UHGV virus genome: UHGV-0311442
DNA length: 64,000 nucleotides
Reading direction: 5' to 3' (one strand)
From: a virus
The notes under the pieces were generated by a model. That model worked only from the letters and a program-made list of their open reading frames with translations. It made no database searches and was not told where the DNA came from. The position numbers and the translations under genes were made by a program. Every line of letters begins with the position of its first letter. Within the stretch, counting starts at the first letter, position 1. Below, one piece after another: positions 1-56,010 of this stretch.

Positions 1-2689
1 AGTTAATTGCACCCCAAACCATGTCTTGCGTCAGTTCGAACTTACGGTTACTGCCCGGTGCGTTATTGTAGTTACGCATCGCTCTGACCATCGCAGTATA
101 GATGTGGTAGGCAATCCTCTGATTTCCTAAGAACATCATTTCATCGCCGTTAATCTCTGGTAAAGAGTGGTCAGTTTGTAACAGTTCGTTAGAACGTTCC
201 AACAAGCCAATAAAGGTTTCCGGTTCACCCATTTTCCTGAGGATACGTGCGTGCATGTCGTCAACAAACGCGGACCGCATCTGTTTCAGCTCGTTGATGT
301 ACCGTGGTGTTAGGCCATCTGCATCACGTAATAAGTTCAGGTAAATGTCTTCACGGTCTGCTTCTGATTCGGTATAAGCAACCAGGTGTTTGAGATAGCG
401 ATCCAAACCATGCAGAATCATCTTCTGCTGATCGTTATCGCATGTAACTAAAAGTTTACAGTCTTGCAGTCGAATAATACTGTCGTAGGCATTCTTATCA
501 ACACGCTGCCCTGCGGGAACCAACTCGTACTGGATACCGAAATGTTTCAACATTCCCTGGAGTCCAAGGTAGAACGAGAAGATAAAACCAAGCGACAAAG
601 ATTTACCCATCAAAGACAGCTCGGTCATTTCGCGAGGCACTTTCTGGTTATTAAAGCCCAGTACCTCTGCGATAGTTCCCACCGGTTCAACTTTGTTTCC
701 GTTCACACCGTAAAGCATGGATTTGTCATCCATTGCCAGGATTGTTTCACTACGCGGACGTTTCGCCACTGGCAAAAGTTTGGCAGCATCGGCGTCTCTG
801 AGTTGTTCGTCGTTAAAGAAGTTAACGGCTTCTTTGTAGTCGAAGTTCCACATATAGCCGTTCGCATTAAAGCTGGCAATACGACGTGCAATCTCCGTAT
901 ACTGACGCGGCAGATGTTGCGTAGGATCGAACACATTTGCTAAACGTGCATCGGTGACTTCGGTGTTTGTCGGGTCAACAGCACGTGTGATAATCGCGTT
1001 GGTTAACCAACGACCGTAATCGTTCGCGACCTTATCACTACGACGGACAAAGTTTTTACCGTAAGCGGTAGTCAGTGCGACAGTATCCGGTGCAACCTTA
1101 CGAATCGGTAAGTCCACACGTTGCCGACGCATGGTGTATTCGACACCATTAGCTACCCAAGTACCGTCCTCGGTCAAGCCTGGGATAGAGAAGCGAACGG
1201 TTGTTGGCTCACCACCGACTGGCTGAACACGTAAAGTGTGGTGCTCGATAGTTCCTGTAACAGAAACTTCTTTTTCCACCGTGTGGTTGTGAACCGCCAG
1301 ACCCAAACGTTGCGAACTGGCGACCGCCGCCAGCACGTCTTTGGTCATCATGGTCTGGTTGTATTGTTTCACCATCTGGTCGGTGACGTTCTCGGCCCAC
1401 CCTTCGTCGGTAACAAGTCGCTGAACCTTTTTCGGCTCGGCTTTAACGACGACATCTTTCTCGTGAACAGTAAGCGCTTCCCCGTAGGTTTCTTTCGGGT
1501 TATACGGGTTAGGTAGCTGAACGAAACGTTTAGACGATTCTGACAGGAACTGATATGCTTTAGAACTTAAGCGGCCCGCTTCAGCTAAGCGTTGTGCTTC
1601 CTGTTTAATAATCTCGTCATGTGGGATGACTTTCTCGACAACAATTGTCGTCGGTTTGACGTCTTCCTTCGGTTCTTCAATAACGACGTCTTCTTTTTCA
1701 TCGAAGGCGTTATCGGATTCCACCACAGCGTCATTAACAACGTCGTCATCGTCGACAACATCAACGGTTTCTTCTTCGACGTCTTTAAGGAAAACACGCT
1801 CGTCGCCTTCAGGCGTTAGGAATTCCGCTTCGTACGCGTTAGACGGTGCTTGTGTCATTACACGCACCAGCGTACGGTAGAACATCCTGGCCATTTGGTC
1901 GTCACTTAAACGACCGCCGGACGACTTACGCATTTTCTCTACAACACCCATGTTCATGGACGTAAAGCCCGTGTTGTGGGTGAAGATAAAGTTCATTCGT
2001 GACAGCTGAGTTAAATCCATTCCCGCGAATAAGGAATCGGATTGTTTTCCATAAGCCCAAGCAAACAATTCTAATAACCACAGCAAGTTGAAGTCCTGGA
2101 ACTTCTCAATCTTGCTCTTAACACGGTCGTTATAGGTTGTTTGAAACTTCTGGAACGAAGGCAATGTCGAACCCAGTTCAATAACGAAATAGTTCTGACG
2201 CATGTATTCTTGCGTGTCGTATTTGAACTGGTTAATCATCAATAGTTGGATGTTACGCAATCTATCGTACCAGGCTAACTGGGTGTCAGGATAGTAGTAG
2301 TGCGACAACATCGGTGTGTAGTTCTCGATCAGGAGAACTTTTAAGTCTTTGCGAACCAGATCGTCTGAGGTAAGACGACGCATCGGGCGGTTTGCACGGT
2401 GGTAAGCAAAGATAGCACGTTCTTGCCCCTGAACAGGTTTGTTGCGCGGATGACCGCTAATACCGTCTTCCGGTAATTTAAAGTGGTGACGAACCTGTGC
2501 AGGTTTTTCTAACGGTTGAATAATCTCGAGTGTTGCAGGTGGCGCTAATACCACCTGGTCGAGATCAATGACATGGAGTACAGAACCACGTGGTATCTGT
2601 AGCTTCTCGAGCGGGATAATCCTCGGATTACCAAACTCGTCAGTTTTACGCACCGAGAAGCGTTGGTTAAACTGTTTAATGAGCAGCAT
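1..2689 (-). CDS. Multisubunit RNA polymerase beta-like subunit, N-terminal-fragment type (phiKZ-lineage virion RNAP). The first 896 codons are in the window and the ORF runs off the left edge.
   Basis: Absent from the supplied track because it is edge-truncated. Hand translation of the minus strand from the ATG at 2689 (MLLIKQFNQRF...) stays open to position 1. It contains GTWVANGVEYTMRRQRVDLPI, which resembles the bacterial beta segment GTFIINGTERVIVSQL. The gene lies immediately downstream of the beta-prime fragment gene. Confidence 0.55.
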   Translation of the reverse strand, partial: MLLIKQFNQRFSVRKTDEFGNPRIIPLEKLQIPRGSVLHVIDLDQVVLAPPATLEIIQPLEKPAQVRHHFKLPEDGISGHPRNKPVQGQERAIFAYHRANRPMRRLTSDDLVRKDLKVLLIENYTPMLSHYYYPDTQLAWYDRLRNIQLLMINQFKYDTQEYMRQNYFVIELGSTLPSFQKFQTTYNDRVKSKIEKFQDFNLLWLLELFAWAYGKQSDSLFAGMDLTQLSRMNFIFTHNTGFTSMNMGVVEKMRKSSGGRLSDDQMARMFYRTLVRVMTQAPSNAYEAEFLTPEGDERVFLKDVEEETVDVVDDDDVVNDAVVESDNAFDEKEDVVIEEPKEDVKPTTIVVEKVIPHDEIIKQEAQRLAEAGRLSSKAYQFLSESSKRFVQLPNPYNPKETYGEALTVHEKDVVVKAEPKKVQRLVTDEGWAENVTDQMVKQYNQTMMTKDVLAAVASSQRLGLAVHNHTVEKEVSVTGTIEHHTLRVQPVGGEPTTVRFSIPGLTEDGTWVANGVEYTMRRQRVDLPIRKVAPDTVALTTAYGKNFVRRSDKVANDYGRWLTNAIITRAVDPTNTEVTDARLANVFDPTQHLPRQYTEIARRIASFNANGYMWNFDYKEAVNFFNDEQLRDADAAKLLPVAKRPRSETILAMDDKSMLYGVNGNKVEPVGTIAEVLGFNNQKVPREMTELSLMGKSLSLGFIFSFYLGLQGMLKHFGIQYELVPAGQRVDKNAYDSIIRLQDCKLLVTCDNDQQKMILHGLDRYLKHLVAYTESEADREDIYLNLLRDADGLTPRYINELKQMRSAFVDDMHARILRKMGEPETFIGLLERSNELLQTDHSLPEINGDEMMFLGNQRIAYHIYTAMVRAMRNYNNAPGSNRKFELTQDMVWGAIN

Positions 2690-2698
2690 TGCTTAGCC

Positions 2699-4318
2699 TT
2701 ATGGGTTCTTTAATAACGCTTGCGTTGCACGTTTAATCACGTTGTTGATAGGATTGATTTTAAAGTTCCCATCAGAATCGAACCAGTAGTTTTTCGAGTG
2801 TATCCAATTCCGGTTTTCCTCGAGCGCTTCCTGGGACATAGGCGCGTTAAACGACCCGGTATCGCCGTCGTAGTCACCCCCTAAGCCACCTAGACGTGAG
2901 GGGTGTGGTGCCATAGACTCAACGAAGGTAGGAACCGACCGGTCAGGGTAGCTGATAGCCCCTCGGGGTTTTTCAGTTTCCCAGTCATCTTCCAGTTCTT
3001 TTAAGTATAAAGATGACGTGGTGGTCTCCAATCTTATGGTCGATGAATACGTCGAGCCTCGGCCTGTAACGGGATAACGTGTAACGAAACCGAAATAATC
3101 GTTCCAAAGTTCGTAGCCCGACAAATAAAGCAATTCGACGAGCGTCATACCGTGGACGAATTTTCGGTCAAACGTTTTAGGAAGTTCTTCAATATCGTAG
3201 AACACCTTAAAATGTTTGGTGTCTTGGTAAACCAACGCAACGTAGTGGGTGTCGTCCAACATAATCGGTTGATGGCGAAGCTCGCGAGCTTCCATTCGGT
3301 TGATTAAGGATTCAATCCCATCGTCGGTGGTAAAGGTGTCGTATACACGACCACCTACTTCCAAGAATTCACGTTTAAGGGTTTTGGTGTTTACGCCGTA
3401 AAGGTTGCCGTCACCAGCACGGATGTTACCGAGGTAACGTTCACGTATCTGGTATTGGGCGACAGGGAGTAATGCTTTTAAACCCTGGTATAAACCAATT
3501 TTGGTGTCGGTGGGACGAATAGCGTCTTCACGACCCATGCACTTAGACCCCGTCGAGAACGAGGACAGTACGTTACGTGTCCCGTTCATTAATTTACGAG
3601 ACGTCACTTTACGACGTTGGAAACCCCCTTTACCGTCTTGGATGTTAAAGAAATACATCCAGATATCGTTGAAGGTTTGTTGCAGCTTCCAGCGTACGGG
3701 GTTAGTTAATTCAACACGGGTTGCTCGGTCAGGGATCGCTCTGGCGAGTGATACCAACCGACGATACATCCCGCCGATTTCTTCTTCCTGCTCTCTACCA
3801 TCTTGTCGAATTACTAAATCGCGTAAACCCGCGGGTAACACGAGAACGTATCGACTAAGACTAACGGGACGGAATTTCAAAAAGAAATCCACGGTTTCGT
3901 CACGTTGTAGGGACTCGTTACGCTTAGGTTTTAAATCGTTATAGTGACTGAGGAAGAAGTTAAAACCGGTATCTGCGCCTGGGTCTCCCGGCAAGGCCGG
4001 TTCGAAATCTTTTTCTTTTTCGCTCCACGTTGCGTAGCGTTTTCCAGAACAAATTTCTTCGTAGAGTTGTTTGAGTTGGAATAACGCCAAACACACCGTC
4101 GGCGAAATGATATCGAGTTTAATATCGATATAAGAGAAAGTAGAGTCTCGCGCTTCACTCCCCGTGAGTCCAAATATCTCTGTAGAGTAAAGACCTTCGG
4201 GGTGAAAGTTTTTTGTTAACCCCTGGAAAGTATCCGTGGTCGTGACGGGTCGTAATCGCGACACAAGAGACTTGTTTACATTGAGCAGATAAAAGTCAAC
4301 CCAATTAAGTTTATTCAC
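2699..4318 (-). CDS. Multisubunit RNA polymerase beta-prime subunit, N-terminal fragment (split beta-prime)
   Basis: Track ORF of 539 aa with a GTG start 7 nt after AGGAG. By-eye matches to bacterial beta-prime: VLVLPAGLRDLV (cf. VLPVxPPxLRP), GKGGFQRRKVTSRKLMNGTRNVLS (cf. [21 protein letters not shown]) and GGDYDGDTGSFNAP (cf. NADFDGDQMAVHVP; nt ~2858-2880). The protein ends about 50 aa after the DxDGD motif. Confidence 0.85.
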   Translation of the reverse strand: MNKLNWVDFYLLNVNKSLVSRLRPVTTTDTFQGLTKNFHPEGLYSTEIFGLTGSEARDSTFSYIDIKLDIISPTVCLALFQLKQLYEEICSGKRYATWSEKEKDFEPALPGDPGADTGFNFFLSHYNDLKPKRNESLQRDETVDFFLKFRPVSLSRYVLVLPAGLRDLVIRQDGREQEEEIGGMYRRLVSLARAIPDRATRVELTNPVRWKLQQTFNDIWMYFFNIQDGKGGFQRRKVTSRKLMNGTRNVLSSFSTGSKCMGREDAIRPTDTKIGLYQGLKALLPVAQYQIRERYLGNIRAGDGNLYGVNTKTLKREFLEVGGRVYDTFTTDDGIESLINRMEARELRHQPIMLDDTHYVALVYQDTKHFKVFYDIEELPKTFDRKFVHGMTLVELLYLSGYELWNDYFGFVTRYPVTGRGSTYSSTIRLETTTSSLYLKELEDDWETEKPRGAISYPDRSVPTFVESMAPHPSRLGGLGGDYDGDTGSFNAPMSQEALEENRNWIHSKNYWFDSDGNFKINPINNVIKRATQALLKNP

Positions 4319-23404: not shown

Positions 23405-23429
23405 CTCACGTAGATAATATCTGTCTGAC
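23405..23429 (-). promoter_or_regulatory. Promoter-like motif, class B (minus orientation: GTCAGACAGATATTATCTACGTGAG)
   Basis: The AGATATTATC core sits exactly 28 nt upstream of the ATG at 23384, the same core and spacing as at 32521-32545. It lies in a divergent intergenic region. Confidence 0.45.
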
Positions 23430-32520: not shown

Positions 32521-32545
32521 TACACCTGGATAATATCTATCTAAG
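32521..32545 (-). promoter_or_regulatory. Promoter-like motif, class B (minus orientation: CTTAGATAGATATTATCCAGGTGTA)
   Basis: The AGATATTATC core sits exactly 28 nt upstream of the ATG at 32500. The TAG stop of the upstream gene forms the 5' end of the motif. Confidence 0.45.
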
Positions 32546-42010: not shown

Positions 42011-42035
42011 GTGCCCTAATGATAATATCTATTTA
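42011..42035 (-). promoter_or_regulatory. Promoter-like motif, class B (minus orientation: TAAATAGATATTATCATTAGGGCAC)
   Basis: Same TAGATATTATC core as 32521-32545, again beginning with the TAG stop of the upstream gene. It lies upstream of the SLT gene. Confidence 0.4.
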
Positions 42036-47980: not shown

Positions 47981-48370
47981 TCAATGATCTAATTCAATAG
48001 CACCAGCCATCTTGCCCCGTTCTTCGATAACAATCAGATAACGGTCGCGAGATTTGCTTTTAGCGAGAGTTAAGACAACAGTAGGGTCGCATGTTTTCGT
48101 GGTGATAGGAAGAACCTCTCTTTCGACGGAATCGAGCAGAAAGTAATAACCTGCGGGACACATTGTGCCACCGTCAGCTTTTACCAGAATATAGCGCCCG
48201 TCTGCGCCGACTTCTTGGCAGATTGTTTCACCGACTTCGCAAACTTCAAACCCCGGAGGATTGTACTGATAATCGGTATTGTTGTTTGGGGTTAGCAGTA
48301 AATCGTTAACTTGAGTAGATGCTGCTACACTCAGGGAGAAGAAGAATGCTAAAACGCAGACGAGACGCAT
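47981..48370 (-). CDS. Secreted small Cys-containing protein; paralog of 48381..48791
   Basis: Track ORF of 129 aa with signal-like MRLVCVLAFFFSLSVAAS. There are four Cys. CEVGETICQ...RYILVKADGGTMC corresponds to CTEIDGLYCQ...RYVFIVEQGGAWC in the neighbour. Confidence 0.6.
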   Translation of the reverse strand: MRLVCVLAFFFSLSVAASTQVNDLLLTPNNNTDYQYNPPGFEVCEVGETICQEVGADGRYILVKADGGTMCPAGYYFLLDSVEREVLPITTKTCDPTVVLTLAKSKSRDRYLIVIEERGKMAGAIELDH

Positions 48371-48380
48371 GAGTTACTCC

Positions 48381-48791
48381 TTAAATTTTAAGTTTATCCA
48401 TAGCTACAACGATAGGTTTTTCCGAAGTGTCTAATATCCCTACCATTGGCACACCATCTACGACTTCGAAGAATGGTTTGTTATTACCAGAGCATAGACG
48501 TTTGTCGTTGTATTCGAGACGTTGGGCCTTCCACGTTTCGAGGTTGAGTACAGACATTGGGCTGTCGTAGCACCAGGCACCACCTTGCTCAACGATGAAT
48601 ACGTATCTGCTACCTTTGTATTTAAACAGACTCTTCGCCTGACAGTACAACCCGTCAATTTCCGTACAATAGAAATCATCGGTGCTATTGACGTATTTAA
48701 TATTGTCTGGCAACTGAATCGTCTTTGCTGTAGCGTTGACAGAGAACAGAACAGCCATTGCAATGAGAAGAGTGTTGATGATAGTTTTCAT
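48381..48791 (-). CDS. Secreted small Cys-containing protein; paralog of 47981..48370
   Basis: Track ORF of 136 aa with signal-like MKTIINTLLIAMAVLFSVNATA/KT. It shares the four-Cys pattern with the neighbour. Confidence 0.6.
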   Translation of the reverse strand: MKTIINTLLIAMAVLFSVNATAKTIQLPDNIKYVNSTDDFYCTEIDGLYCQAKSLFKYKGSRYVFIVEQGGAWCYDSPMSVLNLETWKAQRLEYNDKRLCSGNNKPFFEVVDGVPMVGILDTSEKPIVVAMDKLKI

Positions 48792-48802
48792 GATAAAAGT
48801 CC

Positions 48803-49288
48803 TTAGTATTTAGATTGTTCTACGTATTTCTTAACCAGGTAAGCGAATTCAGCAACACCGATATCACCGAACCAAATCAGGTAACCGGGGTCGATGTTGT
48901 AGTAATAGCCGACGAGTTTCTTGGTGTGTGGGTTGTATAGCGTTACGATGTATTCCCAACCACAAGCGTTAGCTTTACAACCGCCGCTTTCAATCCAGAT
49001 TTTGTTGTTGATATTTACCGGATACATGTTACCGCCAGGGCCATCCATGTAACCTTTAGAGCCGAACATACCATCCAGTCCCACAGGGTCTAGTGTTTTA
49101 TCAACAACGGCTTTAAACGACTTATCGGTATCGTACAAGTCGTTGATGTTTGGGCACGCATTTGGCTGACCTTCCCAAGCGTTTCCATCGCAGGTAAGCA
49201 ATTCGTCTACGGAGGCCGCATCTACAGTTGGCGTGGCACCGATAAACAAGAAAACCAGAAAGAACATCAGTGTATGTAAACGTTTCAT
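48803..49288 (-). CDS. Secreted protein, Ivy-like (inhibitor of lysozyme / lytic transglycosylase family) candidate
   Basis: Track ORF of 161 aa with signal MKRLHTLMFFLVFLFIGATPTVDA/AS. IWIESGGCKANACGWEYIVTLYNPHTKKLVGYYYNID...LIWFGDIG aligns by eye with E. coli Ivy YQVMSACKPHDCGSQRIAVMWSEKSNQMTGLFSTID...LTWLNVND. The loop His is replaced (CKANAC; nt ~48959-48985). Confidence 0.4.
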   Translation of the reverse strand: MKRLHTLMFFLVFLFIGATPTVDAASVDELLTCDGNAWEGQPNACPNINDLYDTDKSFKAVVDKTLDPVGLDGMFGSKGYMDGPGGNMYPVNINNKIWIESGGCKANACGWEYIVTLYNPHTKKLVGYYYNIDPGYLIWFGDIGVAEFAYLVKKYVEQSKY

Positions 49289-49306
49289 TGTAACTACTCC
49301 TTTAGA

Positions 49307-49699
49307 TTATTCGGCAGGACGATTTAAGGTAACGCGTCCGATTAATTCGGCGTTGTGAAAGAAGTCCACAGCGGTATAATTACCAACGGATAATGGGTGA
49401 ATACTAACTGACATTACTTTCGGTTGTTCGCAAGCAATATCGGTTAGACGTTGGTAGACTTGCGCACGGGTGTCAGCAATGAGTAACCCCGTACACGCTT
49501 CACCACGCACTAAACGATAAACTTGCAGTTTACCGAAACTGCGCATTAACGTAGGCGTCTCATCCGGGTTGATAATCGGTGAGTCAGGAGCCGGTTCGTA
49601 ATAGCGGACATCCGAATCACCGAAAGCATAAGTGCCAGTAATTCCGACCGCACAGAAAATAATGATAGTATAAAGTATAGTTCTGATATTCATTTTCAC
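49307..49699 (-). CDS. Secreted or membrane-anchored small protein
   Basis: Track ORF of 130 aa (GTG at 49699; alternative ATG at 49693). The N-terminus IRTILYTIIIFCAVGITGTYA/FG is hydrophobic and signal-like. Confidence 0.55.
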   Translation of the reverse strand: MKMNIRTILYTIIIFCAVGITGTYAFGDSDVRYYEPAPDSPIINPDETPTLMRSFGKLQVYRLVRGEACTGLLIADTRAQVYQRLTDIACEQPKVMSVSIHPLSVGNYTAVDFFHNAELIGRVTLNRPAE

Positions 49700-49721
49700 G
49701 CACTCTAAAAAAGATTAATAG

Positions 49722-50183
49722 TTATTTGTTAGGACGGGTGTGCCCACAGTTTTGGAAGAAAGTTTCAGATAAACGATCGCCTTCTACGGTAAAGTTAGCG
49801 GCATCGTTACCATTGATACTCACACTGAAAGTTTTGGCATTACCGATAGCATTAACGAAAGCAACCCAAGCGTGTTCTGCCTTGTCACTACCGTCCACGG
49901 TAGGGATGTTATAGGTTTTGCCGTTTACGACAATATCCATCGTGTTATCTTCAGCGTTAGTTGCACCTACGGGTTCCCCGTAATACCAAACCATGCGACC
50001 GTAAAATTTGCGATTCGCAGTTTCAGTGTCACAGTTGATAGACAGTCCGTTTCCGGCGGTGTCTTCAATTTCGTAAACTGCCTGGCCAGGGTTTTGTATT
50101 TGTTCCCAGCTGTTGATAGCGGCGTGTGCAGTATTGAAACCGATTACGAAAAGGGCGATTAAAAAGGAAGTGAAGATTTTCAT
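49722..50183 (-). CDS. Secreted small protein
   Basis: Track ORF of 153 aa with signal MKIFTSFLIALFVIGFNTAHA/AI and an ATG after ATAAAGGAGC. It is the first gene after promoter-like motif 50231-50257. Confidence 0.6.
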   Translation of the reverse strand: MKIFTSFLIALFVIGFNTAHAAINSWEQIQNPGQAVYEIEDTAGNGLSINCDTETANRKFYGRMVWYYGEPVGATNAEDNTMDIVVNGKTYNIPTVDGSDKAEHAWVAFVNAIGNAKTFSVSINGNDAANFTVEGDRLSETFFQNCGHTRPNK

Positions 50184-50230
50184 TGTTTTGCTCCTTTATG
50201 GCGTTAATGTATAAAGAGTTAATCGTAACT

Positions 50231-50257
50231 CTCACCTAAGTAATATATATCTGAAAT
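50231..50257 (-). promoter_or_regulatory. Promoter-like motif, class A (minus orientation: ATTTCAGATATATATTACTTAGGTGAG)
   Basis: Near-identical to 54517-54543. It lies directly downstream (minus sense) of terminator 50276-50308 and ~50 nt upstream of the ATG at 50183. The upstream flank is AT-rich. Confidence 0.5.
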
Positions 50258-50275
50258 TATTTTTAATATTAACGA

Positions 50276-50308
50276 ACAAAAAATAAAAGGTGGGGGTAAA
50301 CCCCCACC
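50276..50308 (-). terminator. Rho-independent terminator (minus strand)
   Basis: Stem ggtggggg/cccccacc with loop taaa. The minus strand continues ttttatttttt. Confidence 0.8.
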
Positions 50309-50312
50309 GATG

Positions 50313-50891
50313 TTATACATCGAACCGGTACTGCCGGGAGTTAATGAGGAACTCGGTATTCAGCTCAATCCATTCGAGTAAATCACCCAACGGTAATCGG
50401 TTTGGGTTTTCTAACTCAATAGACGCTACCGGATAAGAGTTTACTAATTCCGTAATTGCCTCAATACCCTCTTGCGTTCCGTCGTCTTCTAAGGTGATTG
50501 TAAACGGCATATCGGTACGATCCGCATTAGGATTGTACAAACTGACTTTCGTTGCTTGGACAAACGCAGTCAGGTCGTCACGTATAATGCGTGTATCAGG
50601 CGCTAGAACTACCCAGAGATGTTGTCCTGGCTGGAGTTTACGTTTTGCGTAGTTTAAGAACGGGTTAGCCGGTAAGCTTTCCAAACCACTGCAAATGTTC
50701 CGTAAATGAATCCCTCGTGGGTCTTTATAGTCCACGCTGAAGATTCCTACCGGTTCCTTCGCTGCCTGTTTTATCAGAAAGACCAATACCGTGTCCGCTC
50801 TTTCTGGTAAGGAAAGCTCTATTCCCTCAAGCTCCCCATCGACGAGGTTTTCCAACCAAACGTCTTTTCGCATTTCTATTAATCGGTACAC
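50313..50891 (-). CDS. Hypothetical protein
   Basis: Track ORF of 192 aa with a GTG start after GTGAGGTGG. It lacks the C-terminal GW...QLLF module of the four upstream genes. Confidence 0.55.
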   Translation of the reverse strand: MYRLIEMRKDVWLENLVDGELEGIELSLPERADTVLVFLIKQAAKEPVGIFSVDYKDPRGIHLRNICSGLESLPANPFLNYAKRKLQPGQHLWVVLAPDTRIIRDDLTAFVQATKVSLYNPNADRTDMPFTITLEDDGTQEGIEAITELVNSYPVASIELENPNRLPLGDLLEWIELNTEFLINSRQYRFDV

Positions 50892-50903
50892 GGTACCACC
50901 TCA

Positions 50904-51677
50904 CTATTGATTAAGTTTTACATCGGCAATAAACAGCAATTGTTTACCATGTTGCTGCACTTCTTTCCAACCTAGTTTCATAGCAGCGTCAACAACATCT
51001 AACATGCTGTAACGGGACATCAACGCGGTTGATTTTGTTCCTGACATTAAATAAAGCGGCTCATTAGGGCAACGGTCTCGAGCATCAGGAAGTTCTCGAA
51101 TAACCGCTGAGCCTTCGGGTGCGGTAACAACGTGAATCACGGTAAATGGTCTCTTATGCGTTAAATAGATACGAAATCCAACGTGTTCAGATTCATGAAA
51201 GATTTTCTTCACAACCACATCTTTTAGTGTTGTCTGAACATCATCCCCAGGTAATATCGTGGATTCACGAGAAACGAAACAACGACTATTTTCAATCGTG
51301 GAGAAATAATTACGTATCGGCAAACTGGCGTTATGATCGCGCAGTTTTTTGCTCAATAGATCGAAGTTCAGTTCTTTAACTTTTTCTAACCACTCTTTGG
51401 CTTGTTGAATGTAATAACTACCAACAGCGCGATAAGTTAATACCTTACCTGTGCTCACTTTCCAAAGCTTGATGCTTAGTGAATTTGGCTTATAGCGACG
51501 ATACTCACCCTGCGTATGGTTGATGCGCTCGTAACGCTCTACATCATCAACTGGTGCAGATTCGACCGATTGTAATTGCAGCGTACGATCTAATCTATCG
51601 GCAAATAGTAGTGATGATAGCGGGCCTTCGATCATATACGGTTCGGTTTTAAAGATATCGTCTAAATGGACTTTCAT
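50904..51677 (-). CDS. Member of the tandem paralog family (C-terminal GW...QLLF module)
   Basis: Track ORF of 257 aa. The N-terminus MKVHLDDIFKTE corresponds to MKELLDDIFTNT of 53511..54248. The C-terminus is LGWKEVQQHGKQLLFIADV. Confidence 0.6.
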   Translation of the reverse strand: MKVHLDDIFKTEPYMIEGPLSSLLFADRLDRTLQLQSVESAPVDDVERYERINHTQGEYRRYKPNSLSIKLWKVSTGKVLTYRAVGSYYIQQAKEWLEKVKELNFDLLSKKLRDHNASLPIRNYFSTIENSRCFVSRESTILPGDDVQTTLKDVVVKKIFHESEHVGFRIYLTHKRPFTVIHVVTAPEGSAVIRELPDARDRCPNEPLYLMSGTKSTALMSRYSMLDVVDAAMKLGWKEVQQHGKQLLFIADVKLNQ

Positions 51678-51692
51678 TTCTATTTCCTTCTT

Positions 51693-51718
51693 AACAAAAG
51701 CCGCGACTAAAGCGCGGC
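51693..51718 (-). terminator. Hairpin terminator (minus strand), weaker
   Basis: Stem gccgcg/cgcggc. The minus strand continues ttttgtt. Confidence 0.55.
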
Positions 51719-51744
51719 AGTTAGAGAAAGTGTAGTTTCACTTA

Positions 51745-52896
51745 TTAAAGGTCAGCAACAAACAGCAGCTGACTGCCGTACGGTTCGACAGATTTCCAAC
51801 CGTAATCTTTACCGATCGTCGTTAGATGGCCGGTATTTAACTTTTTGTCAACCATCCGCAGACGCATCATTAGCGTATTGGATTCTGCCGCATCGAGTAA
51901 CAACGCAGGTTCTTTTTCAGTGCGGTCATCCGCTTTCGGGAAGAAACTGTAATACTGACTTTTGGGCAGTTCGATTGTCAACGTATAGTTTTTCTTTGTA
52001 ATGAATAACGCCATCCCTTCGAAATTACAATCGAAACGATATTCCCAACCCGCCTCGGCTAAAACGTCTTTTAGCATTTCCATGACTTTAAGCTGGTTAA
52101 CGCTAGGCAGTCGGTAAGCTGCAAGGTTACTTGGAAATATGCGTATACCGTCGACGACACTATCGGTGGTTTCGTCAATAAGTTCAGGATAACGTTGCGA
52201 GAAAATATGATCGCTCTTGCTTTTCTCTTCGATGTCACGAATGAATTGGGCTATTTCGTCTCTTAAGCCAGACACTTGATTTTCTCCTTCGACTTCAATA
52301 ATCTGGTGGGGTTCGCCGCTAATTAAAATGTGGTAAACGATGTCGTCGGTAGAACGGTAAGTGAGTTTGATAGCTTTATCACTTAACATTTCGTAGCGGA
52401 AGAAACTTTCGTACCAAGTTGACCCGAAATCGTTTCGTGTAAGTTCCTGCTCAACTTTGATGGTTTTTGCTTCAAAACCAATTAACCCACTTAATAACGC
52501 GTGTTCTGGTTTAGTTAAAATGTTCGCACCGTGAAAGGGCACTTTCTCAAGCTGAAAACATAAATTACTGACTTTACCACTTGGGAAGACCTTAAACATA
52601 ATCTTCCGGCTGCTACTCTTTTCCCTAACAACGAGTTTACGGTAATTTAGTCCACAATTTGTGTAAACCGCGAACTTGTAACCTTCAATTTCTTCATCGT
52701 AAGTACAGACATCGACAGGTGCGATAATCTCATTGTATTCAGTAAGTACACAGCAGCCCAAGTTATAACCAAACAACTCACGTTGTAATGAAGATTCGAT
52801 GGTTAAGCTTGGTAGTGACCAAGTCCGATTATAGCATCTGTCCATCAGTTCTTTTAGGATCTTGGCATGTCCTGGCTTAGAAATAATATTTCGCAT
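51745..52896 (-). CDS. Member of the tandem paralog family; carries two copies of the GW...LF module
   Basis: Track ORF of 383 aa. The C-terminus is YGWKSVEPYGSQLLFVADL, and an internal copy reads AGWEYRFDCNFEGMALFITK. Confidence 0.6.
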   Translation of the reverse strand: MRNIISKPGHAKILKELMDRCYNRTWSLPSLTIESSLQRELFGYNLGCCVLTEYNEIIAPVDVCTYDEEIEGYKFAVYTNCGLNYRKLVVREKSSSRKIMFKVFPSGKVSNLCFQLEKVPFHGANILTKPEHALLSGLIGFEAKTIKVEQELTRNDFGSTWYESFFRYEMLSDKAIKLTYRSTDDIVYHILISGEPHQIIEVEGENQVSGLRDEIAQFIRDIEEKSKSDHIFSQRYPELIDETTDSVVDGIRIFPSNLAAYRLPSVNQLKVMEMLKDVLAEAGWEYRFDCNFEGMALFITKKNYTLTIELPKSQYYSFFPKADDRTEKEPALLLDAAESNTLMMRLRMVDKKLNTGHLTTIGKDYGWKSVEPYGSQLLFVADL

Positions 52897-52926
52897 TTTT
52901 ACTCTCCTTTAGGGTTTTTTTGTTAC

Positions 52927-53481
52927 TTAAGCAGGGTAAGCTAAAAACAACAACTGCTGGCCGAGTTTACGTACAGTATACCAACCGTGGGCTTTAGCGA
53001 CCGCGATCAACGTTTCCCAGTCATCAACATCACACTGCTCATTCCGAAGTCTTGTAAAGAGTGCCTCGGCTTCGCTTTGGTTTAATAACTTACCTGGGTT
53101 GTCTGGGGTGCAGTCAGTAGGGGTTGGAAAGAAAGTATACTGACGCGCTAGGAGAAAATCGACCAGATACTTGGTATTTTCTTTATAAACCAGCGTGGAA
53201 GACTTTCCTTCGTGGAAGAAGCTGCCTGTTTTCCAAGCGCTATCCCCCAGTAAGCTCTGAAGGTAATCTGTAAAGCCCGTTCTGAAAGGGATATGGTTTT
53301 TACGTGTGATGTTACGACGCAGCGGGGTTTCCTCTACAGCTTGTACACCCACCCCTACTATCATCGCACCTGGCTGAATAATGCTATTGGTCAGTACGGT
53401 ATAAGGACGGACAAAGAAATGTTCGCCTACGCCTTTTTCAAGGGTTTGGATAATTTCATTTTTCAGTTCAGTTTGAAACAT
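52927..53481 (-). CDS. Member of the tandem paralog family
   Basis: Track ORF of 184 aa. The C-terminus is HGWYTVRKLGQQLLFLAYPA. Confidence 0.6.
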   Translation of the reverse strand: MFQTELKNEIIQTLEKGVGEHFFVRPYTVLTNSIIQPGAMIVGVGVQAVEETPLRRNITRKNHIPFRTGFTDYLQSLLGDSAWKTGSFFHEGKSSTLVYKENTKYLVDFLLARQYTFFPTPTDCTPDNPGKLLNQSEAEALFTRLRNEQCDVDDWETLIAVAKAHGWYTVRKLGQQLLFLAYPA

Positions 53482-53510
53482 GGTATATTCTCCTTTTTCG
53501 GTTTTCTTAA

Positions 53511-54248
53511 TTACGCGGTTTTAATTAACAGCAGATAGTCCTTCGTAATCTCAGCACAACCCCACCCTCTCATCGCGGCGATTTTACGAAGATCAATTTT
53601 CTCGTGATATCTCAATAAGGGATCGCCTGAGTTAATCTCAACCAGGTGTGTGGCTTTAGAAATCGTTTCTACATCAGGGATCTGTTTTGCTAAGTCGGAT
53701 GCAATTAACTCGATGATACGGTATCCCTCTAACACAGAAACATAGATGCGCAAACCATATAGCGTGCCTTCGTCTTCTAATGGACAAAGATCGATGCCGG
53801 GTCCAAGCAGTGATAACTCGACGTTATCGGGAAGGTTTTCTGCATTTCGGAGTAACCCTATCCCATTTCTAAACAGAGGGAAGTAAGAGAATAGTGGTGG
53901 TAAAGCCCAACCGTTCCCAATAAGCACATCAGCGATACTCGTAGGTGTGTTCGCAAGAAGACGAATGTGGTCAGCCACAACTTCAAGTTCGGCGTCACTG
54001 ATCAACTTATAGATTAACATGACACTGGTTTCGGTATTAATAACAAAGAAGACGCGGTTGGCGTAACTGCCTATCACGTATTCGTCAATCATACAGTCGA
54101 TAACGTCACTGTCTGGATAATCTTCAGGTTTAATTGTTCCAGCATCGATTAACTTAGCAGGTTGCGATTGTTTTATTAGTTCGTTAACCACCGTAGAAGA
54201 AAGTTCTAAACTGGTGTTGGTAAAGATATCGTCTAATAATTCTTTCAT
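53511..54248 (-). CDS. Member of the tandem paralog family (most divergent C-terminus)
   Basis: Track ORF of 245 aa. The C-terminus is RGWGCAEITKDYLLLIKTA, and the N-terminus matches 50904..51677. Confidence 0.6.
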   Translation of the reverse strand: MKELLDDIFTNTSLELSSTVVNELIKQSQPAKLIDAGTIKPEDYPDSDVIDCMIDEYVIGSYANRVFFVINTETSVMLIYKLISDAELEVVADHIRLLANTPTSIADVLIGNGWALPPLFSYFPLFRNGIGLLRNAENLPDNVELSLLGPGIDLCPLEDEGTLYGLRIYVSVLEGYRIIELIASDLAKQIPDVETISKATHLVEINSGDPLLRYHEKIDLRKIAAMRGWGCAEITKDYLLLIKTA

Positions 54249-54344
54249 GATTTACTCGCTAATCCCAATGAAGGGAAGGCTATTATTATGGATTGTAAAA
54301 GAGGTATAAGGAAGTCACTACGTTCCTCTGGGAAGAGTATGTCG

Positions 54345-54382
54345 GTATACTCCGTATACCTCCGCTATTTATATCCGTATAC
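54345..54382. repeat. Three copies of C(C/G)GTATAC (palindromic GTATAC cores at 54345-50, 54354-59 and 54377-82)
   Basis: Read directly from the sequence, in the 319-bp non-coding region between divergent genes. Candidate operator array. Confidence 0.6.
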
Positions 54383-54388
54383 ATAATG

Positions 54389-54402
54389 CCCCCTACCCCC
54401 TA
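54389..54402. repeat. Tandem heptamer CCCCCTA x2
   Basis: Read directly from the sequence (ccccctaccccctacc). Confidence 0.7.
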
Positions 54403-54487
54403 CCGGTATCCCGAGTAGCAGAATAAAGGGACATAATGTAATTTTTAGTAACCTTTAACGAAAGGTACTAAAAGGGTAACGTGTCCG

Positions 54488-54516
54488 TAGGGACTGAACT
54501 GGTACTTCAGTCCCTA
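54488..54516 (-). other. 11-bp hairpin (tagggactgaa/ttcagtcccta) immediately downstream (minus sense) of promoter-like motif 54517-54543
   Basis: Read directly from the sequence. It would form the 5' end of a minus-strand transcript. Confidence 0.55.
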
Positions 54517-54543
54517 TTCACTTAAGTAAAATATATCTGAAAT
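54517..54543 (-). promoter_or_regulatory. Promoter-like motif, class A (minus orientation: ATTTCAGATATATTTTACTTAAGTGAA)
   Basis: Near-identical to 50231-50257. It points toward the paralog array but lies ~270 nt upstream of its first ATG (54248). Confidence 0.45.
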
Positions 54544-54568
54544 CAATTCCGATCTAAGGAACGTCCCG

Positions 54569-55534
54569 ATGGAGAAATCCAGTGTTGATTTTTTCTCAAT
54601 TGGTATCGTCGCGGAAGACAAACCCCGTGGTACAGATCGGGTAAAAGTGATACCAATTGAAACTAACTTTGCTAACCCTACCGTGGTGCAATCTGTTTCT
54701 TCAGCAACTGAAAAGACGCATGAAACGTCTGGTGCAACAGATAACCTAACCATTAAGACGGGTAACACGATAACAGCAAAGTGGTGGAAGTTTAACTCCA
54801 ACCGAATTAATTCCCCTGACGTTAAACGAGAAGACTACGTTATCTTGTTACGTTTGGGGAAAACCGATATTTATTTTTGGATTGATCTGAACTTCGCTAA
54901 CGTTAAGCGATTAGAAGATGCGGTTTATGCGTGGTCGGCTGACCCTGAAAACCAAATGGCGGATGACTTGTCCAATGCGTATGTGTTGAACGTTTCGACG
55001 ATTGACAAACATATCACGCTAAGAACAAGTATGGTGAATGGCGAGAAAGCGGCGTGGTTGTTTCAGTTTGATAATGCAAACGGTACGTGGCAGTGCGTTG
55101 ACCATAAAGGAAACAAGTATTACATTAACTCGGTTGAAGATGATCTCGGGTTTGAGAATGCGATGCTTTCAAAAGTGAACATCAACAAAGAAGATGCGTT
55201 CATTTATTCAAAGCGTTCTATTAACCTGGAAACGAAAACGATTAATGAAAAATGCGAAGTTCGCAATACAGAAGCAGCGAAATCCGTTACGTTTAAAACA
55301 CAAACCTGGTTAACGGAAGCGGGAAGTTCGACAACGTTTAAAACGCCGAACTTTAAACAAGAAGGGAAGGAAGCGATGTTCACCGGTAATTTGGAAATCG
55401 CTAAGAACTTCAAATACGGTGGTACGGGTGAAGGTGTGGGTGTCTTTACGGTTAAAGATGCTGTTATTTCCGGTATTACCTTTAGCGTTCACATTCACCA
55501 AGGTAAACATGGTCCGACATCACCTCCGCAATAA
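54569..55534 (+). CDS. Baseplate central spike / cell-puncturing protein (gpV/gp5 OB-fold-like)
   Basis: Track ORF of 321 aa. The N-terminus FFSIGIVAEDKPRGTDRVKVIPIE is OB-fold-like. The C-terminus VHIHQGKHGPTSPPQ resembles the HxH...G.T..P apex motif of P2 gpV/Mu gp45-type spikes. It neighbours tail-fibre genes. Confidence 0.45.
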   Translation: MEKSSVDFFSIGIVAEDKPRGTDRVKVIPIETNFANPTVVQSVSSATEKTHETSGATDNLTIKTGNTITAKWWKFNSNRINSPDVKREDYVILLRLGKTDIYFWIDLNFANVKRLEDAVYAWSADPENQMADDLSNAYVLNVSTIDKHITLRTSMVNGEKAAWLFQFDNANGTWQCVDHKGNKYYINSVEDDLGFENAMLSKVNINKEDAFIYSKRSINLETKTINEKCEVRNTEAAKSVTFKTQTWLTEAGSSTTFKTPNFKQEGKEAMFTGNLEIAKNFKYGGTGEGVGVFTVKDAVISGITFSVHIHQGKHGPTSPPQ

Positions 55535-55740
55535 TTCCCCTTTTTCTTACGTTGTTTTTATATATTGTGACCTGACGTTGGTAAAACTTTTTATCAACAC
55601 TTTTCTTAAACCCATCGTTTAGTTAAGCAGGCCACTTTTTTCGCGCACTCTACTCCTCCCTACGGGGAGGAGCTATCTTATGCTTCGGTTGTAACACACG
55701 TCGGTCTTAGACCACCTTCCTTTTGAAATGGAGAGCTGTT

Positions 55741-55950
55741 ATGTCTATTAAAGAGTTCTCTTCTGCTGAGCATATTCCAGAAGAGTTTAAGAAAATCGGT
55801 AACGTTAGCGCCTTCGGCGATACCGTTGATCATGTAACTGGTAAGCTGGCTGCTGAAGCCGAAAAAATTGGCGGCGACGCATTCAAAGTTATCGGTATTT
55901 CCGGCAACAACAAACTGCACGGTAACGCGATTGTCTACAAAAAAGACTAA
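55741..55950 (+). CDS. DUF1471 (YdgH/BhsA/McbA-like) small protein lacking a signal peptide
   Basis: The track ORF starts at a TTG at 55723. The ATG at 55741 follows GGAGAGCTGTT. KKIGNVSAFGDTVDHVTGKLAAEAEKIGGDAFKVIGISGNNKLHGNAIVYKK matches the enterobacterial BhsA/YhcN-family core pattern (IG.VS..G...S.......LA.KA...GA....I.S.......L.G.A..YK). Confidence 0.6.
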   Translation: MSIKEFSSAEHIPEEFKKIGNVSAFGDTVDHVTGKLAAEAEKIGGDAFKVIGISGNNKLHGNAIVYKKD

Positions 55951-55953
55951 GCG

Positions 55954-56010
55954 AAAAAAAAACGTGCTACTCCTACCCTCTAAGAGGGTAGGAGGTTACT
56001 TTATTTTTTT
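55954..56010. terminator. Bidirectional hairpin terminator
   Basis: 11-bp stem ctcctaccctc/gagggtaggag with loop taa. An A9 run lies upstream and tttattttttt downstream. Confidence 0.8.

What the first reader, a model, noticed from the sequence alone, without database searches (positions are those of the whole stretch)
50231..50257. Class A promoter-like motif: two near-identical 27-mers, TTTCAGATATAT(A/T)TTACTTA(G/A)GTGA
In minus orientation, 50257-50231 reads ATTTCAGATATATATTACTTAGGTGAG and 54543-54517 reads ATTTCAGATATATTTTACTTAAGTGAA. They differ at only three or four positions.

Both point into minus-strand accessory arrays (the secreted-protein operon and the paralog array). The first sits immediately after a strong terminator and has an AT-rich upstream flank.

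The TATAT(A/T)TTAC core is reminiscent, from memory, of the AT-rich early promoters used by the virion RNAP of phiKZ-like phages. I cannot verify the published consensus here. If that is correct, these two arrays are immediate-early genes.
Basis: partly seen in the sequence, partly recalled or inferred. Interest (0 to 1): 0.6.

Follow-up and report, generated by a model that had tools for sequence, protein, structure and literature searches.

The report
Jumbo-phage early promoter plus 5' hairpin
The two near-identical 27-mers are copies of the early-gene promoter that phiKZ-like giant phages probably use with the RNA polymerase they inject; this 22-bp form is shared by Salmonella and Erwinia relatives and is nearly always followed by a small hairpin at the start of the transcript, so the finding is real but of an expected kind.

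Summary
Both 27-mers lie on the minus strand at the stated coordinates and differ at 3 positions; chance expectation is 0.

The window comes from an uncultivated jumbo phage of the SPN3US/Erskinevirus group and carries virion RNA polymerase genes. The motif core, TATATTAC-N6-G, matches the octamer upstream of phiKZ early genes, read directly from the phiKZ genome, and the published AR9/phiKZ rule that transcription starts 6 nt downstream.

The 22-mer CAGATATATWTTACYTARGTGA is the only DNA in 8 kb still alignable by megablast to cultured relatives. It is multi-copy (7 sites in SPN3US), intergenic, co-oriented with the next gene, and absent from 185,579 bacterial and archaeal genomes.

- 31 of 33 distinct sites have a 5' stem-loop starting within 5 nt of the predicted +1. 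It shows compensatory changes among orthologs and is not systematic at phiKZ early promoters.
- A sister class, AGATAGATATTATCT, has three more sites in the window. It lacks the hairpin and has shorter leaders.
- Genes are gained and lost directly behind the promoter.

No transcript ends were mapped, so early timing and the choice of polymerase are inferred. Verdict: a new member of a known kind, of moderate interest.

The parts
50289..50308 (-). Intrinsic terminator (8-bp G+C stem followed by a T run) that ends the upstream paralog array, directly 5' of promoter 1.
   Evidence: The stem shows compensatory variation in orthologs (GGTGGGGG/CCCCCACC versus GGTGGGG/CCCCACC, alignment A2).
50254..50276 (-). 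AT-rich upstream element of promoter 1 (TTCGTTAATATTAAAAATAATTT).
   Evidence: A similar ATTAAAAATAATTT-type stretch precedes most class A sites and the phiKZ sites. PMC8244752 describes a T-rich motif upstream of -19 in phiKZ.
50232..50253 (-). Class A promoter 1: CAGATATATATTACTTAGGTGA. The core TATATTAC is at 50247-50240 and the predicted +1 is the G at 50233.
   Evidence: It is invariant in 4 orthologous loci, and a fifth differs at one position (A2). It is the only segment of 8 kb that megablast aligns to cultured phages.
50214..50233 (-). 5'-terminal stem-loop of transcript 1 (GAGAGUUA-CGAU-UAACUCUU, 8 pairs, starting at +1).
   Evidence: dG -6.5 kcal/mol, z = -2.3. Stem conservation in orthologs: A2.
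50181..50196 (-). Ribosome-binding site (AAGGAG) and ATG of the first gene of the signal-peptide operon. The predicted 5' UTR is 50 nt.
47981..50183 (-). Five consecutive small genes with signal-peptide-like N-termini, driven by promoter 1. Terminator-like sites follow at 47970-47950, 47430-47411 and 46767-46746.
54518..54539 (-). Class A promoter 2: CAGATATATTTTACTTAAGTGA. The core TATTTTAC is at 54533-54526 and the predicted +1 is the G at 54519. It lies in a divergent intergenic region.
54488..54516 (-). 5' stem-loop of transcript 2 (11 bp, +4 to +32).
   Evidence: dG -17 kcal/mol, z = -7.1; 3 of 11 pairs carry compensatory double changes and 100% of cells are paired in 4 ortholog variants.
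54296..54451 (-). Conserved structured non-coding block inside the ~270-nt leader between promoter 2 and the ATG at 54248.
   Evidence: (leader z = -4.6). Two hairpins covary among the window, SPN3US and Asesino. No Rfam match.
50313..54248 (-). Five-gene array downstream of promoter 2, ending at the 50308-50289 terminator. Three of the genes are paralogs.
23406..23427 (-). Sister 'class B' promoter-like site CAGACAGATATTATCTACGTGA, upstream of ORF 22836-23384. Its reverse complement also scores, facing the divergent ORF 23456-23920.
32522..32543 (-). Class B site TAGATAGATATTATCCAGGTGT, upstream of ORF 31763-32500.
42014..42035 (-). Class B site TAAATAGATATTATCATTAGGG. By similar flanking sequence it corresponds to the SPN3US site at 174953.
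2..4318 (-). Two RNA polymerase beta/beta'-like genes: 2699-4318 (complete) and 2-2689 (cut by the window edge). They sit next to the giant tail-fibre gene, as do the two SPN3US RNAP genes at 212357-218194.
   Evidence: (phrog_2986 at 7e-234; phrog_3148 at E = 0). PMC5694885 lists gp240 and gp241 among the five virion RNAP subunits found by mass spectrometry. Matching those numbers to this gene pair is my inference from gene order and gp240's stated 59.6 kDa mass.

Best explanation
Both 27-mers are promoters of the phiKZ-type early class, the AT-rich promoters read by the multisubunit virion RNA polymerase (vRNAP) that these nucleus-forming jumbo phages package and inject.

Proposed mechanism:
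- The TATATTAC octamer acts as the -10-like recognition element, spanning about -14 to -7.
- An A/T-rich stretch lies upstream of it.
- Transcription starts at the G six nucleotides downstream: window 50233 for motif 1 and 54519 for motif 2.

In this enterobacterial lineage (SPN3US, Erskinevirus and the window's own uncultivated subclade) the conserved block is extended to 22 bp, from -20 to +2. It is coupled to a short stem-loop that begins at or within a few nucleotides of +1. That configuration is known to protect E. coli mRNAs from 5'-end-dependent decay.

Promoter 1 restarts transcription just after a terminator and drives an operon of five signal-peptide proteins. Promoter 2 fires away from a late baseplate gene, through a structured leader, into a paralog array.

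Shown here:
- Sequence identity of the core and spacing with phiKZ and AR9.
- Multi-copy, intergenic, co-oriented distribution.
- Conservation far above the flanking DNA.
- Hairpin statistics and covariation.
- RNA polymerase genes in the window whose SPN3US counterparts appear to be the virion subunits gp240/gp241 (that assignment is inferred from gene order and size).

Inferred, not shown:
- The exact +1.
- Early timing.
- The stabilising role of the hairpin.
For: 1. The core and spacing equal those of phiKZ early promoters read from the phiKZ genome: TATATTAC 7 plus versus 0 minus in 50 kb, all intergenic, all followed by N6-G. They also match the published AR9 consensus AAATATATATTAT-(6N)-G+1 and the phiKZ/phiR1-37 start rule (PMC5312081). 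PMC7598289 states that every RNAP-encoding jumbo phage has such a ~10-nt AT-rich motif centred near -10 upstream of early operons.

2. The window encodes RNA polymerase subunits in the same arrangement as the SPN3US pair that, by gene order and size, corresponds to the virion-packaged subunits gp240/gp241 (PMC5694885).

3. Conservation is extreme. Megablast of 8 kb against 50,697 phage records aligns only ~55-70 bp over motif 1 in every listed record. Blastn finds 323 places in 78 jumbo-phage records, up to 6 per genome, mostly with no annotated feature under the match.

4. The exact 22-mer occurs in 28 IMG/VR stretches and 0 times in 596 Gb of bacterial and archaeal genomes.

5. In complete SPN3US, all 7 sites with at most 3 mismatches (0 expected), and 22 of 23 plus-strand PWM hits, are intergenic or at a gene's last codons and co-oriented with the next gene.

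6. Motif 2 has no co-directional gene upstream, only a divergent baseplate gene. It must therefore start a transcript rather than process one.

7. The position is syntenic. A class A site precedes the orthologous secreted-protein operon in SPN3US (165686) and Asesino (L036:15315).

8. In 20 of 33 distinct sites the predicted hairpin starts exactly at the +1 given by the N6 rule. This is independent support for that start.
Against: - No transcript 5' ends, timing data or rifampicin or chloramphenicol data exist for this phage or, as far as I could find, for any SPN3US-like phage.
- No jumbo-phage vRNAP has been shown in vitro to read these sites.
- Genes that must be transcribed before the non-virion polymerase exists (the chimallin-like gene and RNAP subunit genes in SPN3US) are preceded by the sister class B motif, not class A. 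The two classes could therefore be read or timed differently.
- Only two class A sites occur in 64 kb.
- The primary papers giving the phiKZ logo and the bioinformatic motif survey could not be read.
Confidence: 0.85

Rival explanations
1. It is a real phage-specific promoter, but it is read by the non-virion polymerase or by vRNAP plus a newly made factor. That would make it a middle or delayed class rather than immediate-early.
For: SPN3US has two related motif classes. Class B (AGATAGATATTATCT), not class A, precedes the chimallin-like gene and RNAP-subunit genes that must be expressed first. Class A transcripts have a different architecture, with a hairpin and a leader of about 52 nt against about 30 nt.
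Against: Class A, not class B, carries the exact phiKZ early octamer and N6-G spacing. Published phiKZ middle promoters (a TACT motif centred about -22) and late promoters (TATG at +1) look different (PMC8244752, PMC7598289).
Confidence: 0.08
2. It is an RNA-level signal: an AU-rich single-stranded RNase E-type processing site anchored by the adjacent hairpin, inside read-through transcripts.
For: An AU-rich segment followed by a stem-loop resembles known RNase E site architecture (my own background knowledge). Several sites lie between co-directional genes.
Against: - Motif 2 has no co-directional upstream transcription unit.
- Motif 1 follows a strong terminator.
- Invariance of 22 nt across genera is far tighter than the loose specificity I recall for RNase E sites.
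- The same octamer in phiKZ is an experimentally defined promoter (PMC8244752, PMC5312081).
Confidence: 0.03
3. It is a host sigma-70 promoter, with TATATT as the -10 element and an AT-rich UP-like flank.
For: TATATT is 5/6 of TATAAT. Motif 1 has an AT-rich upstream flank and a 4/6 -35-like TTAATA at about the right distance.
Against: - The sigma-70 scan did not call either site.
- The invariant positions (CAGATA, TTAC, TTAGGTGA) are not the ones sigma-70 reads.
- The -35 region is not conserved between sites.
- The 22-mer is absent from 185,579 bacterial and archaeal genomes.
- phiKZ-type phages transcribe independently of host RNAP (PMC7598289).
Confidence: 0.03
4. Its primary role is as a recombination or mobile cassette boundary, like the PeSL elements of T4-type phages, with promoter activity secondary.
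For: Gene content changes exactly at the promoter and hairpin. L011 shares the promoter through +8 and then carries an extra ~420 bp before homology resumes. SPN3US, the window, L011 and Asesino have 0, 1, 2 and 1 (different) extra genes between the promoter and the conserved operon. A ~100-nt small ORF is present or absent just behind promoter 2. Motif 1 is a terminator-promoter composite.
Against: - There are no terminal inverted repeats or target duplications.
- Strict co-orientation and a fixed distance to start codons are promoter properties.
- Shuffling at repeated promoters is a by-product in the PeSL model too (PMC2839356, PMC4122927).
Confidence: 0.04

Closest known systems
phiKZ early (virion-RNAP) promoters
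   Same: Identical octamer TATATTAC. A G lies six nucleotides downstream, preceded by T. An A/T-rich region lies upstream, often with AGAT directly before the octamer. Sites are multi-copy, intergenic and co-oriented (PMC8244752, PMC7598289).
   Different: Here the invariant block is 22 bp (-20 to +2), including CAGATA and YTARGTGA. Transcripts nearly always begin with a stem-loop, which phiKZ early sites lack as a rule (mean z = -0.65, 7 sites). The lineage also has a second, related class B.
Bacillus phage AR9 early promoters, AAATATATATTAT-(6N)-G+1
   Same: ATATATTAY core and the identical 6N spacing to a G start site. Read by an injected multisubunit RNAP (PMC5312081).
   Different: AR9 has a uracil-containing genome and forms no nucleus. 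Its last core base is T rather than C, which makes it closer to the window's class B (GATATTATC).
PeSLs (promoter-early stem-loop cassettes) of T4-type phages
   Same: A terminator stem-loop and an early promoter form a repeated intergenic composite that flanks variable accessory ORFs. Insertions and deletions end at the repeats (PMC2839356, PMC4122927).
   Different: From my recollection of those papers (I saw only their titles and the start of their abstracts), PeSL promoters are sigma-70 early promoters read by host RNAP. Here the promoter is phage-RNAP specific, and the characteristic hairpin lies downstream of +1, in the RNA.
T7-group single-subunit RNAP promoters
   Same: A long (~23 bp), nearly invariant consensus spans the start site, with a conserved initial transcribed sequence. 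Some transcripts start with a stabilising 5' stem-loop (my own background knowledge).
   Different: The polymerase type is different, multisubunit beta/beta'-like, and the sequence is unrelated.
Coliphage N4 virion-RNAP hairpin promoters
   Same: An injected virion polymerase and a short hairpin associated with each early promoter.
   Different: From my own knowledge, N4 hairpins lie upstream of +1, form in DNA, and are themselves the recognition element, with conserved stem and loop features. Here the hairpin starts at +1, its sequence is free and only its pairing is kept.

Membership tests
phiKZ-type vRNAP early promoter | The phage encodes a virion-packaged multisubunit RNAP. | tested here: met
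   Window ORFs 2699-4318 and 2-2689 (minus strand) match RNAP beta-type PHROGs at 7e-234 and E = 0. They are arranged like the SPN3US pair at 212357-218194. By gene order and size that pair corresponds to the virion proteins gp240/gp241 (PMC5694885). Packaging in this phage itself was not shown.
phiKZ-type vRNAP early promoter | A ~10-nt highly conserved AT-rich element centred near -10. | tested here: met
   TATATTAC / TATTTTAC, identical or differing by one base from the phiKZ octamer. Description of the feature: PMC7598289.
phiKZ-type vRNAP early promoter | A conserved transcription start 6 nt downstream of the element. | tested here: inconclusive
   A G preceded by T is present at that position in both copies and in all 33 class A sites by pattern. 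The 5' hairpin starts exactly there in 20 of 33 sites. No 5' ends were mapped.
phiKZ-type vRNAP early promoter | Many copies per genome, intergenic, upstream of and co-oriented with operons. | tested here: met
   SPN3US has 7 class A and about 16 class B sites. Of 23, 22 are intergenic or at a gene's last codons and co-oriented with the next gene. All five window sites are on the coding strand of the next gene.
phiKZ-type vRNAP early promoter | Transcripts appear immediately after infection and are independent of host RNAP and of new protein synthesis. | not testable with these tools
   Needs time-resolved RNA-seq with rifampicin and chloramphenicol. I found no such data for SPN3US-like phages.
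PeSL (T4-type promoter-terminator cassette) | Composite of a terminator stem-loop and an early promoter, repeated in intergenic regions. | tested here: met
   Motif 1 lies directly after a terminator. Many class A sites in relatives follow a hairpin and T run. Motif 2 has no terminator.
PeSL (T4-type promoter-terminator cassette) | The promoter is a host sigma-70 early promoter. | tested here: not met
   No sigma-70 call at either site. The conserved positions are not sigma-70 elements. The core equals the phiKZ phage-RNAP promoter. That PeSL promoters are sigma-70 promoters is my recollection of PMC2839356, not read here.
PeSL (T4-type promoter-terminator cassette) | Insertion, deletion and replacement end-points coincide with the repeats. 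| tested here: met
   L011 versus the window diverge at +9 of promoter 1. The number of promoter-proximal genes varies among SPN3US, the window, L011 and Asesino.
N4-type hairpin promoter | A DNA hairpin upstream of +1 is the recognition element. | tested here: not met
   The hairpin lies at +1 to about +20/+32 and its sequence is variable. The N4 feature itself is from my own knowledge.

The most novel reading that the evidence does not exclude
Class A sites are more than strong copies of the early promoter. They would be a distinct, portable expression cassette: upstream terminator, 22-bp vRNAP promoter, a 5'-terminal stem-loop flush with +1, and a ~50-nt leader. This cassette would mark a separate immediate-early sub-regulon of accessory or host-directed genes in enterobacterial nucleus-forming phages.

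The hairpin would be needed for survival, or for handling or export, of the first transcripts made from the injected genome. The promoter-proximal slot would be the preferred landing site for new genes.

Class B, with no hairpin and a short leader, would serve the core early genes such as chimallin and the non-virion RNAP.
Probability: 0.3. Interest if true: 0.55.

Novelty: new member of a known kind. Interest (0 to 1): 0.35.

Why it matters
- **Annotation.** It gives a sequence-only way to mark the likely first-expressed genes of uncultivated nucleus-forming jumbo phages. In this window those are an operon of five secreted or periplasmic small proteins and a paralog array, both plausible host-takeover or exclusion functions.
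- **Biochemistry.** I found no paper in which a jumbo-phage virion RNAP was characterised on promoters in vitro. The 22-bp block, invariant across genera whose remaining DNA no longer aligns by megablast, defines a concrete template for such work.
- **Engineering.** The promoter-plus-hairpin module is a candidate part for engineering these phages. A consensus phiKZ early promoter has already been used this way (PMC12676376).
- **Testable questions.** The split into a hairpin class and a non-hairpin class, and the gene turnover directly behind the promoter, are hypotheses about early mRNA stability and about how accessory genes enter these genomes.

Tried and rejected
- **Known RNA families.** Rfam at gathering threshold on the whole window, Rfam at E-value threshold on 54150-54650, and ARAGORN found nothing meaningful. 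The only hit was U5 snRNA at 23 bits, E = 0.33.
- **Host promoter.** The sigma-70 scan called neither site, so I rejected a host promoter as the main reading.
- **Literal phiKZ consensus.** The string TATATTAC is not printed in any relevant paper held. Lavysh 2016 and Ceyssens 2014 are not held. No supplementary TSS tables are held for the two phiKZ TSS papers. I derived the phiKZ core from the phiKZ genome instead.
- **Leader block.** Blastn of the conserved leader block against cultured phages found nothing. Only a local low-word-size search, followed by extraction of the syntenic regions, recovered diverged homologs.
- **Temporal data.** A search for temporal proteomics or transcriptomics of SPN3US-like phages gave nothing usable.
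- **My own correction.** I first placed +1 at the G of GTGA. Aligning to AR9 and phiKZ puts it two bases further on, and I recomputed the hairpin statistics with that start (then).
- **Mobile element.** I rejected a transposon-like reading. There are no terminal repeats, and the 22-mer has no hits in bacterial or archaeal genomes, where about 0.5 would be expected by chance.

Full report
**1. Observation**

The minus strand reads ATTTCAGATATATATTACTTAGGTGAG at 50257-50231 and ATTTCAGATATATTTTACTTAAGTGAA at 54543-54517. The two differ at three positions. The degenerate 25-mer has only these two hits in the window, even with three mismatches allowed, and none in 100 shuffles.

Motif 1 follows a strong terminator (50308-50289) and an AT-rich stretch. 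The five genes behind it all start with signal-peptide-like N-termini. Three of the four genes behind motif 2 share a C-terminal domain.

Two details differ from that description. Motif 2 lies 26 nt from the start codon of a divergent baseplate-assembly gene (54569-55534, plus strand). About 270 nt with no convincing ORF separate it from the next long ORF.

**2. What genome this is**

PHROG matches show a phage:
- a baseplate protein
- virion structural proteins
- a 2388-aa tail fibre
- an SbcC-like nuclease
- a UvsX-like recombinase
- two RNA polymerase beta/beta'-type genes at 2699-4318 and 2-2689 (minus strand)

A conserved 420-aa protein is 80% identical to that of Erwinia phage Asesino/phiEaH2 and 77% identical to that of Salmonella phage SPN3US. 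Gene order matches SPN3US at 158-171 kb.

The two RNAP genes sit beside the giant tail-fibre gene, as does the SPN3US pair at 212357-218194. By gene order and size that pair corresponds to gp240/gp241. PMC5694885 lists gp240 and gp241 among the five virion RNAP subunits found in virions by mass spectrometry.

No cultured phage matches the DNA by megablast. Five uncultivated IMG/VR genomes are 80-98% identical.

**3. The motif is conserved far beyond its surroundings**

- Megablast of window 48000-56000 against 50,697 phage records gave matches in 33 records. In every listed record the match is ~55-70 bp over motif 1, at positions with no annotated feature.
- A more sensitive search found 323 places in 78 records, up to six per genome. 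These records are mainly SPN3US-like Salmonella phages and Erwinia jumbo phages, plus Cronobacter CR5 and Serratia PCH45.
- The exact pattern CAGATATATWTTACTTARGTGA occurs in 28 IMG/VR stretches from 13 contigs.
- Its slightly broader form occurs nowhere in one genome from each of 185,579 bacterial and archaeal species.
- In the orthologous alignment of motif 1, the terminator, the AT-rich stretch, the 22-mer and the stem of the following hairpin are conserved. The leader between the hairpin and the ribosome-binding site is the most variable part.

**4. Comparison with characterised promoters**

I could not read the primary phiKZ promoter paper, so I read the phiKZ genome directly. In its first 50 kb, TATATTAC occurs seven times on the plus strand and never on the minus strand. 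Each copy is intergenic and 42-80 nt upstream of a gene: PHIKZ005, 006, 010.1, 031, 036, 041.3 and 054, the nuclear shell gene. Each is followed by six bases and then G, usually TG.

The literature agrees with this reading:
- PMC8244752 reports the early promoter motif at a primary TSS of PHIKZ054.
- PMC5312081 gives the AR9 early consensus as AAATATATATTAT-(6N)-G+1. It also states that the phiKZ and phiR1-37 starts lie 6 nt downstream of the element.
- PMC7598289 states that such a ~10-nt AT-rich element centred near -10 can be found in every RNAP-encoding jumbo phage.

The window motifs, TATATTAC-TTAGGT-G and TATTTTAC-TTAAGT-G, fit exactly. This places +1 at 50233 and 54519.

**5. Genome-wide test in a complete relative**

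I assembled SPN3US from five fetched segments. Seven sites match the 22-mer with at most three mismatches, against 0 expected.

A position weight matrix recovers 23 plus-strand sites. By the annotation, 22 lie between genes or at a gene's last codons and point at the next gene. One is inside gp236. The only minus-strand hit is the mirror image of a partly palindromic site.

A class A site also sits upstream of the same secreted-protein operon in SPN3US (165686, before gp086) and in Asesino (L036:15315).

**6. Two classes**

The scan separated the sites into two groups.

| Feature | Class A | Class B |
|---|---|---|
| Consensus | CAGATATATATTACYTAGGTGA | AGATAGATATTATCT |
| Sites in SPN3US | 7 | about 16 |
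| Sites in the window | 2 | 3 |
| Mean folding z-score of first 32 nt | -2.7 to -2.9 | -0.4 |
| Median leader length | ~52 nt | ~30 nt |

The three class B sites in the window are at 23427-23406, 32543-32522 and 42035-42014, all on the minus strand. In SPN3US, class B precedes the chimallin-like gene and RNAP-subunit genes.

**7. The 5' stem-loop**

With +1 set by the N6 rule, I examined 33 distinct class A sites:
- 28 of 33 fold better than z = -1.5.
- In 20 of 33 the stem starts exactly at +1.
- In 31 of 33 it starts within 5 nt of +1.
- Stem sequences differ between sites (GAGAGUUA, GAGCAUUGA, GAGAUUGC, UAGGGACUGAA and others).

Among four orthologous variants of the motif 2 hairpin, three of 11 pairs carry compensatory double changes and all cells pair. 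Slid controls pair at 23-55%.

The seven phiKZ early sites examined show no systematic hairpin (mean z = -0.65).

From my own knowledge, a stem-loop with almost no unpaired 5' nucleotides is the arrangement that stabilises E. coli mRNAs against 5'-end-dependent RNase E and RppH attack. I take that as the most likely role, but it is an inference.

**8. Gene turnover behind the promoter**

Relative L011 shares promoter 1 through +8 and then carries about 420 bp of different sequence before homology resumes.

Between the promoter and the conserved gp086-type gene, the number of extra genes varies:
- SPN3US: none
- the window: one
- L011: two
- Asesino: one, a different gene

Behind promoter 2, four relatives have a ~100-nt segment with a small ORF that the window and L011 lack.

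This resembles the PeSL cassettes of T4-type phages (PMC2839356, PMC4122927), but with a phage-RNAP promoter.

**9. Rivals**

- **Processing site.** Disfavoured because motif 2 has no co-directional upstream gene and motif 1 follows a terminator.
- **Host sigma-70 promoter.** Disfavoured by the scan, by which positions are conserved, and by the absence of the 22-mer from bacterial genomes.
- **A later promoter class.** This is the most serious rival, because class B rather than class A precedes the genes that must come first. However, class A carries the exact phiKZ early core.

**10. Verdict**

It is a new member of a known kind.

Three secondary features may be new for this lineage: the obligatory 5' stem-loop, the split into classes A and B, and the promoter-proximal gene turnover. 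Timing, the exact start site and the identity of the polymerase remain untested.

Noticed in passing
window 54296-54451 (minus strand); SPN3US 161470-161550; L036:11740-11840; L037-L048 upstream of position 2501: A ~150-nt non-coding block in the leader behind promoter 2 is almost invariant in five relatives whose flanks differ by about 15%. The leader folds with z = -4.6 and there is no Rfam match. Diverged syntenic copies exist next to the baseplate gene in 12 lineages. Two hairpins covary: GGTATAC/GTATACC, GGTATCC/GGATACC and GGTGAC/GTCACC; and GAGGAA/TTCCTT versus GAGGAC/GTCCTC. The class A promoter lies upstream of this block only in the window's subclade. It may be an undescribed structured RNA or a regulatory region.
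   Followed up: partly
window 23406-23427, 32522-32543, 42014-42035 (minus strand): There is a second promoter-like family, AGATAGATATTATCT ('class B'), related to class A but without the 5' hairpin and with leaders of about 30 nt. In SPN3US it precedes the chimallin-like gene and RNAP-subunit genes.
   Followed up: partly
window 23407-23427, between ORF 22836-23384 (minus) and ORF 23456-23920 (plus): This class B site is partly palindromic (AGACAGATATTATCT...) and scores on both strands in a divergent intergenic region. The syntenic SPN3US site behaves the same way (191601 plus, 191621 minus). It may be bidirectional.
   Followed up: no
L011:9531-10034 versus window 50143-50228; L036:15315-17037: Genes are inserted or lost directly behind class A promoter 1. 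SPN3US has 0 extra genes, the window 1, L011 2, and Asesino 1 different 428-aa gene before the conserved gp086-type gene.
   Followed up: partly
A1 columns ~190-290 (L007, L010, L018, L020); absent at window ~54470: A small ORF (ATGTCTACTGAGAAGAAA..., with a ribosome-binding site) lies between the 5' hairpin and the conserved leader block in four relatives. It is cleanly deleted in the window and in L011.
   Followed up: no
window 47981-50183 (minus strand): Five consecutive small proteins (129-161 aa) all start with signal-peptide-like sequences. This looks like a predicted early operon of exported proteins. Three have orthologs in SPN3US (the gp086, gp084 and gp083 regions) and in Asesino.
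   Followed up: partly
L041-L046 and L048, the ~60 nt next to the baseplate gene start (alignment): In relatives that lack the class A insertion, the region just upstream of the baseplate gene keeps a conserved TCATAC/TCATAT...TTTTTTACG block. On the baseplate gene's strand this reads ...CGTAAAAAA...GTATGA. It contains TATG, the published phiKZ late-promoter core (PMC7598289).
   Followed up: no
whole window: No cultured phage is close enough at the DNA level for megablast to align anything beyond the motif in the 8 kb tested. The nearest genomes are five uncultivated IMG/VR contigs (80-98% identity). The window therefore probably represents a new species or genus beside Erskinevirus and Seoulvirus.
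   Followed up: partly
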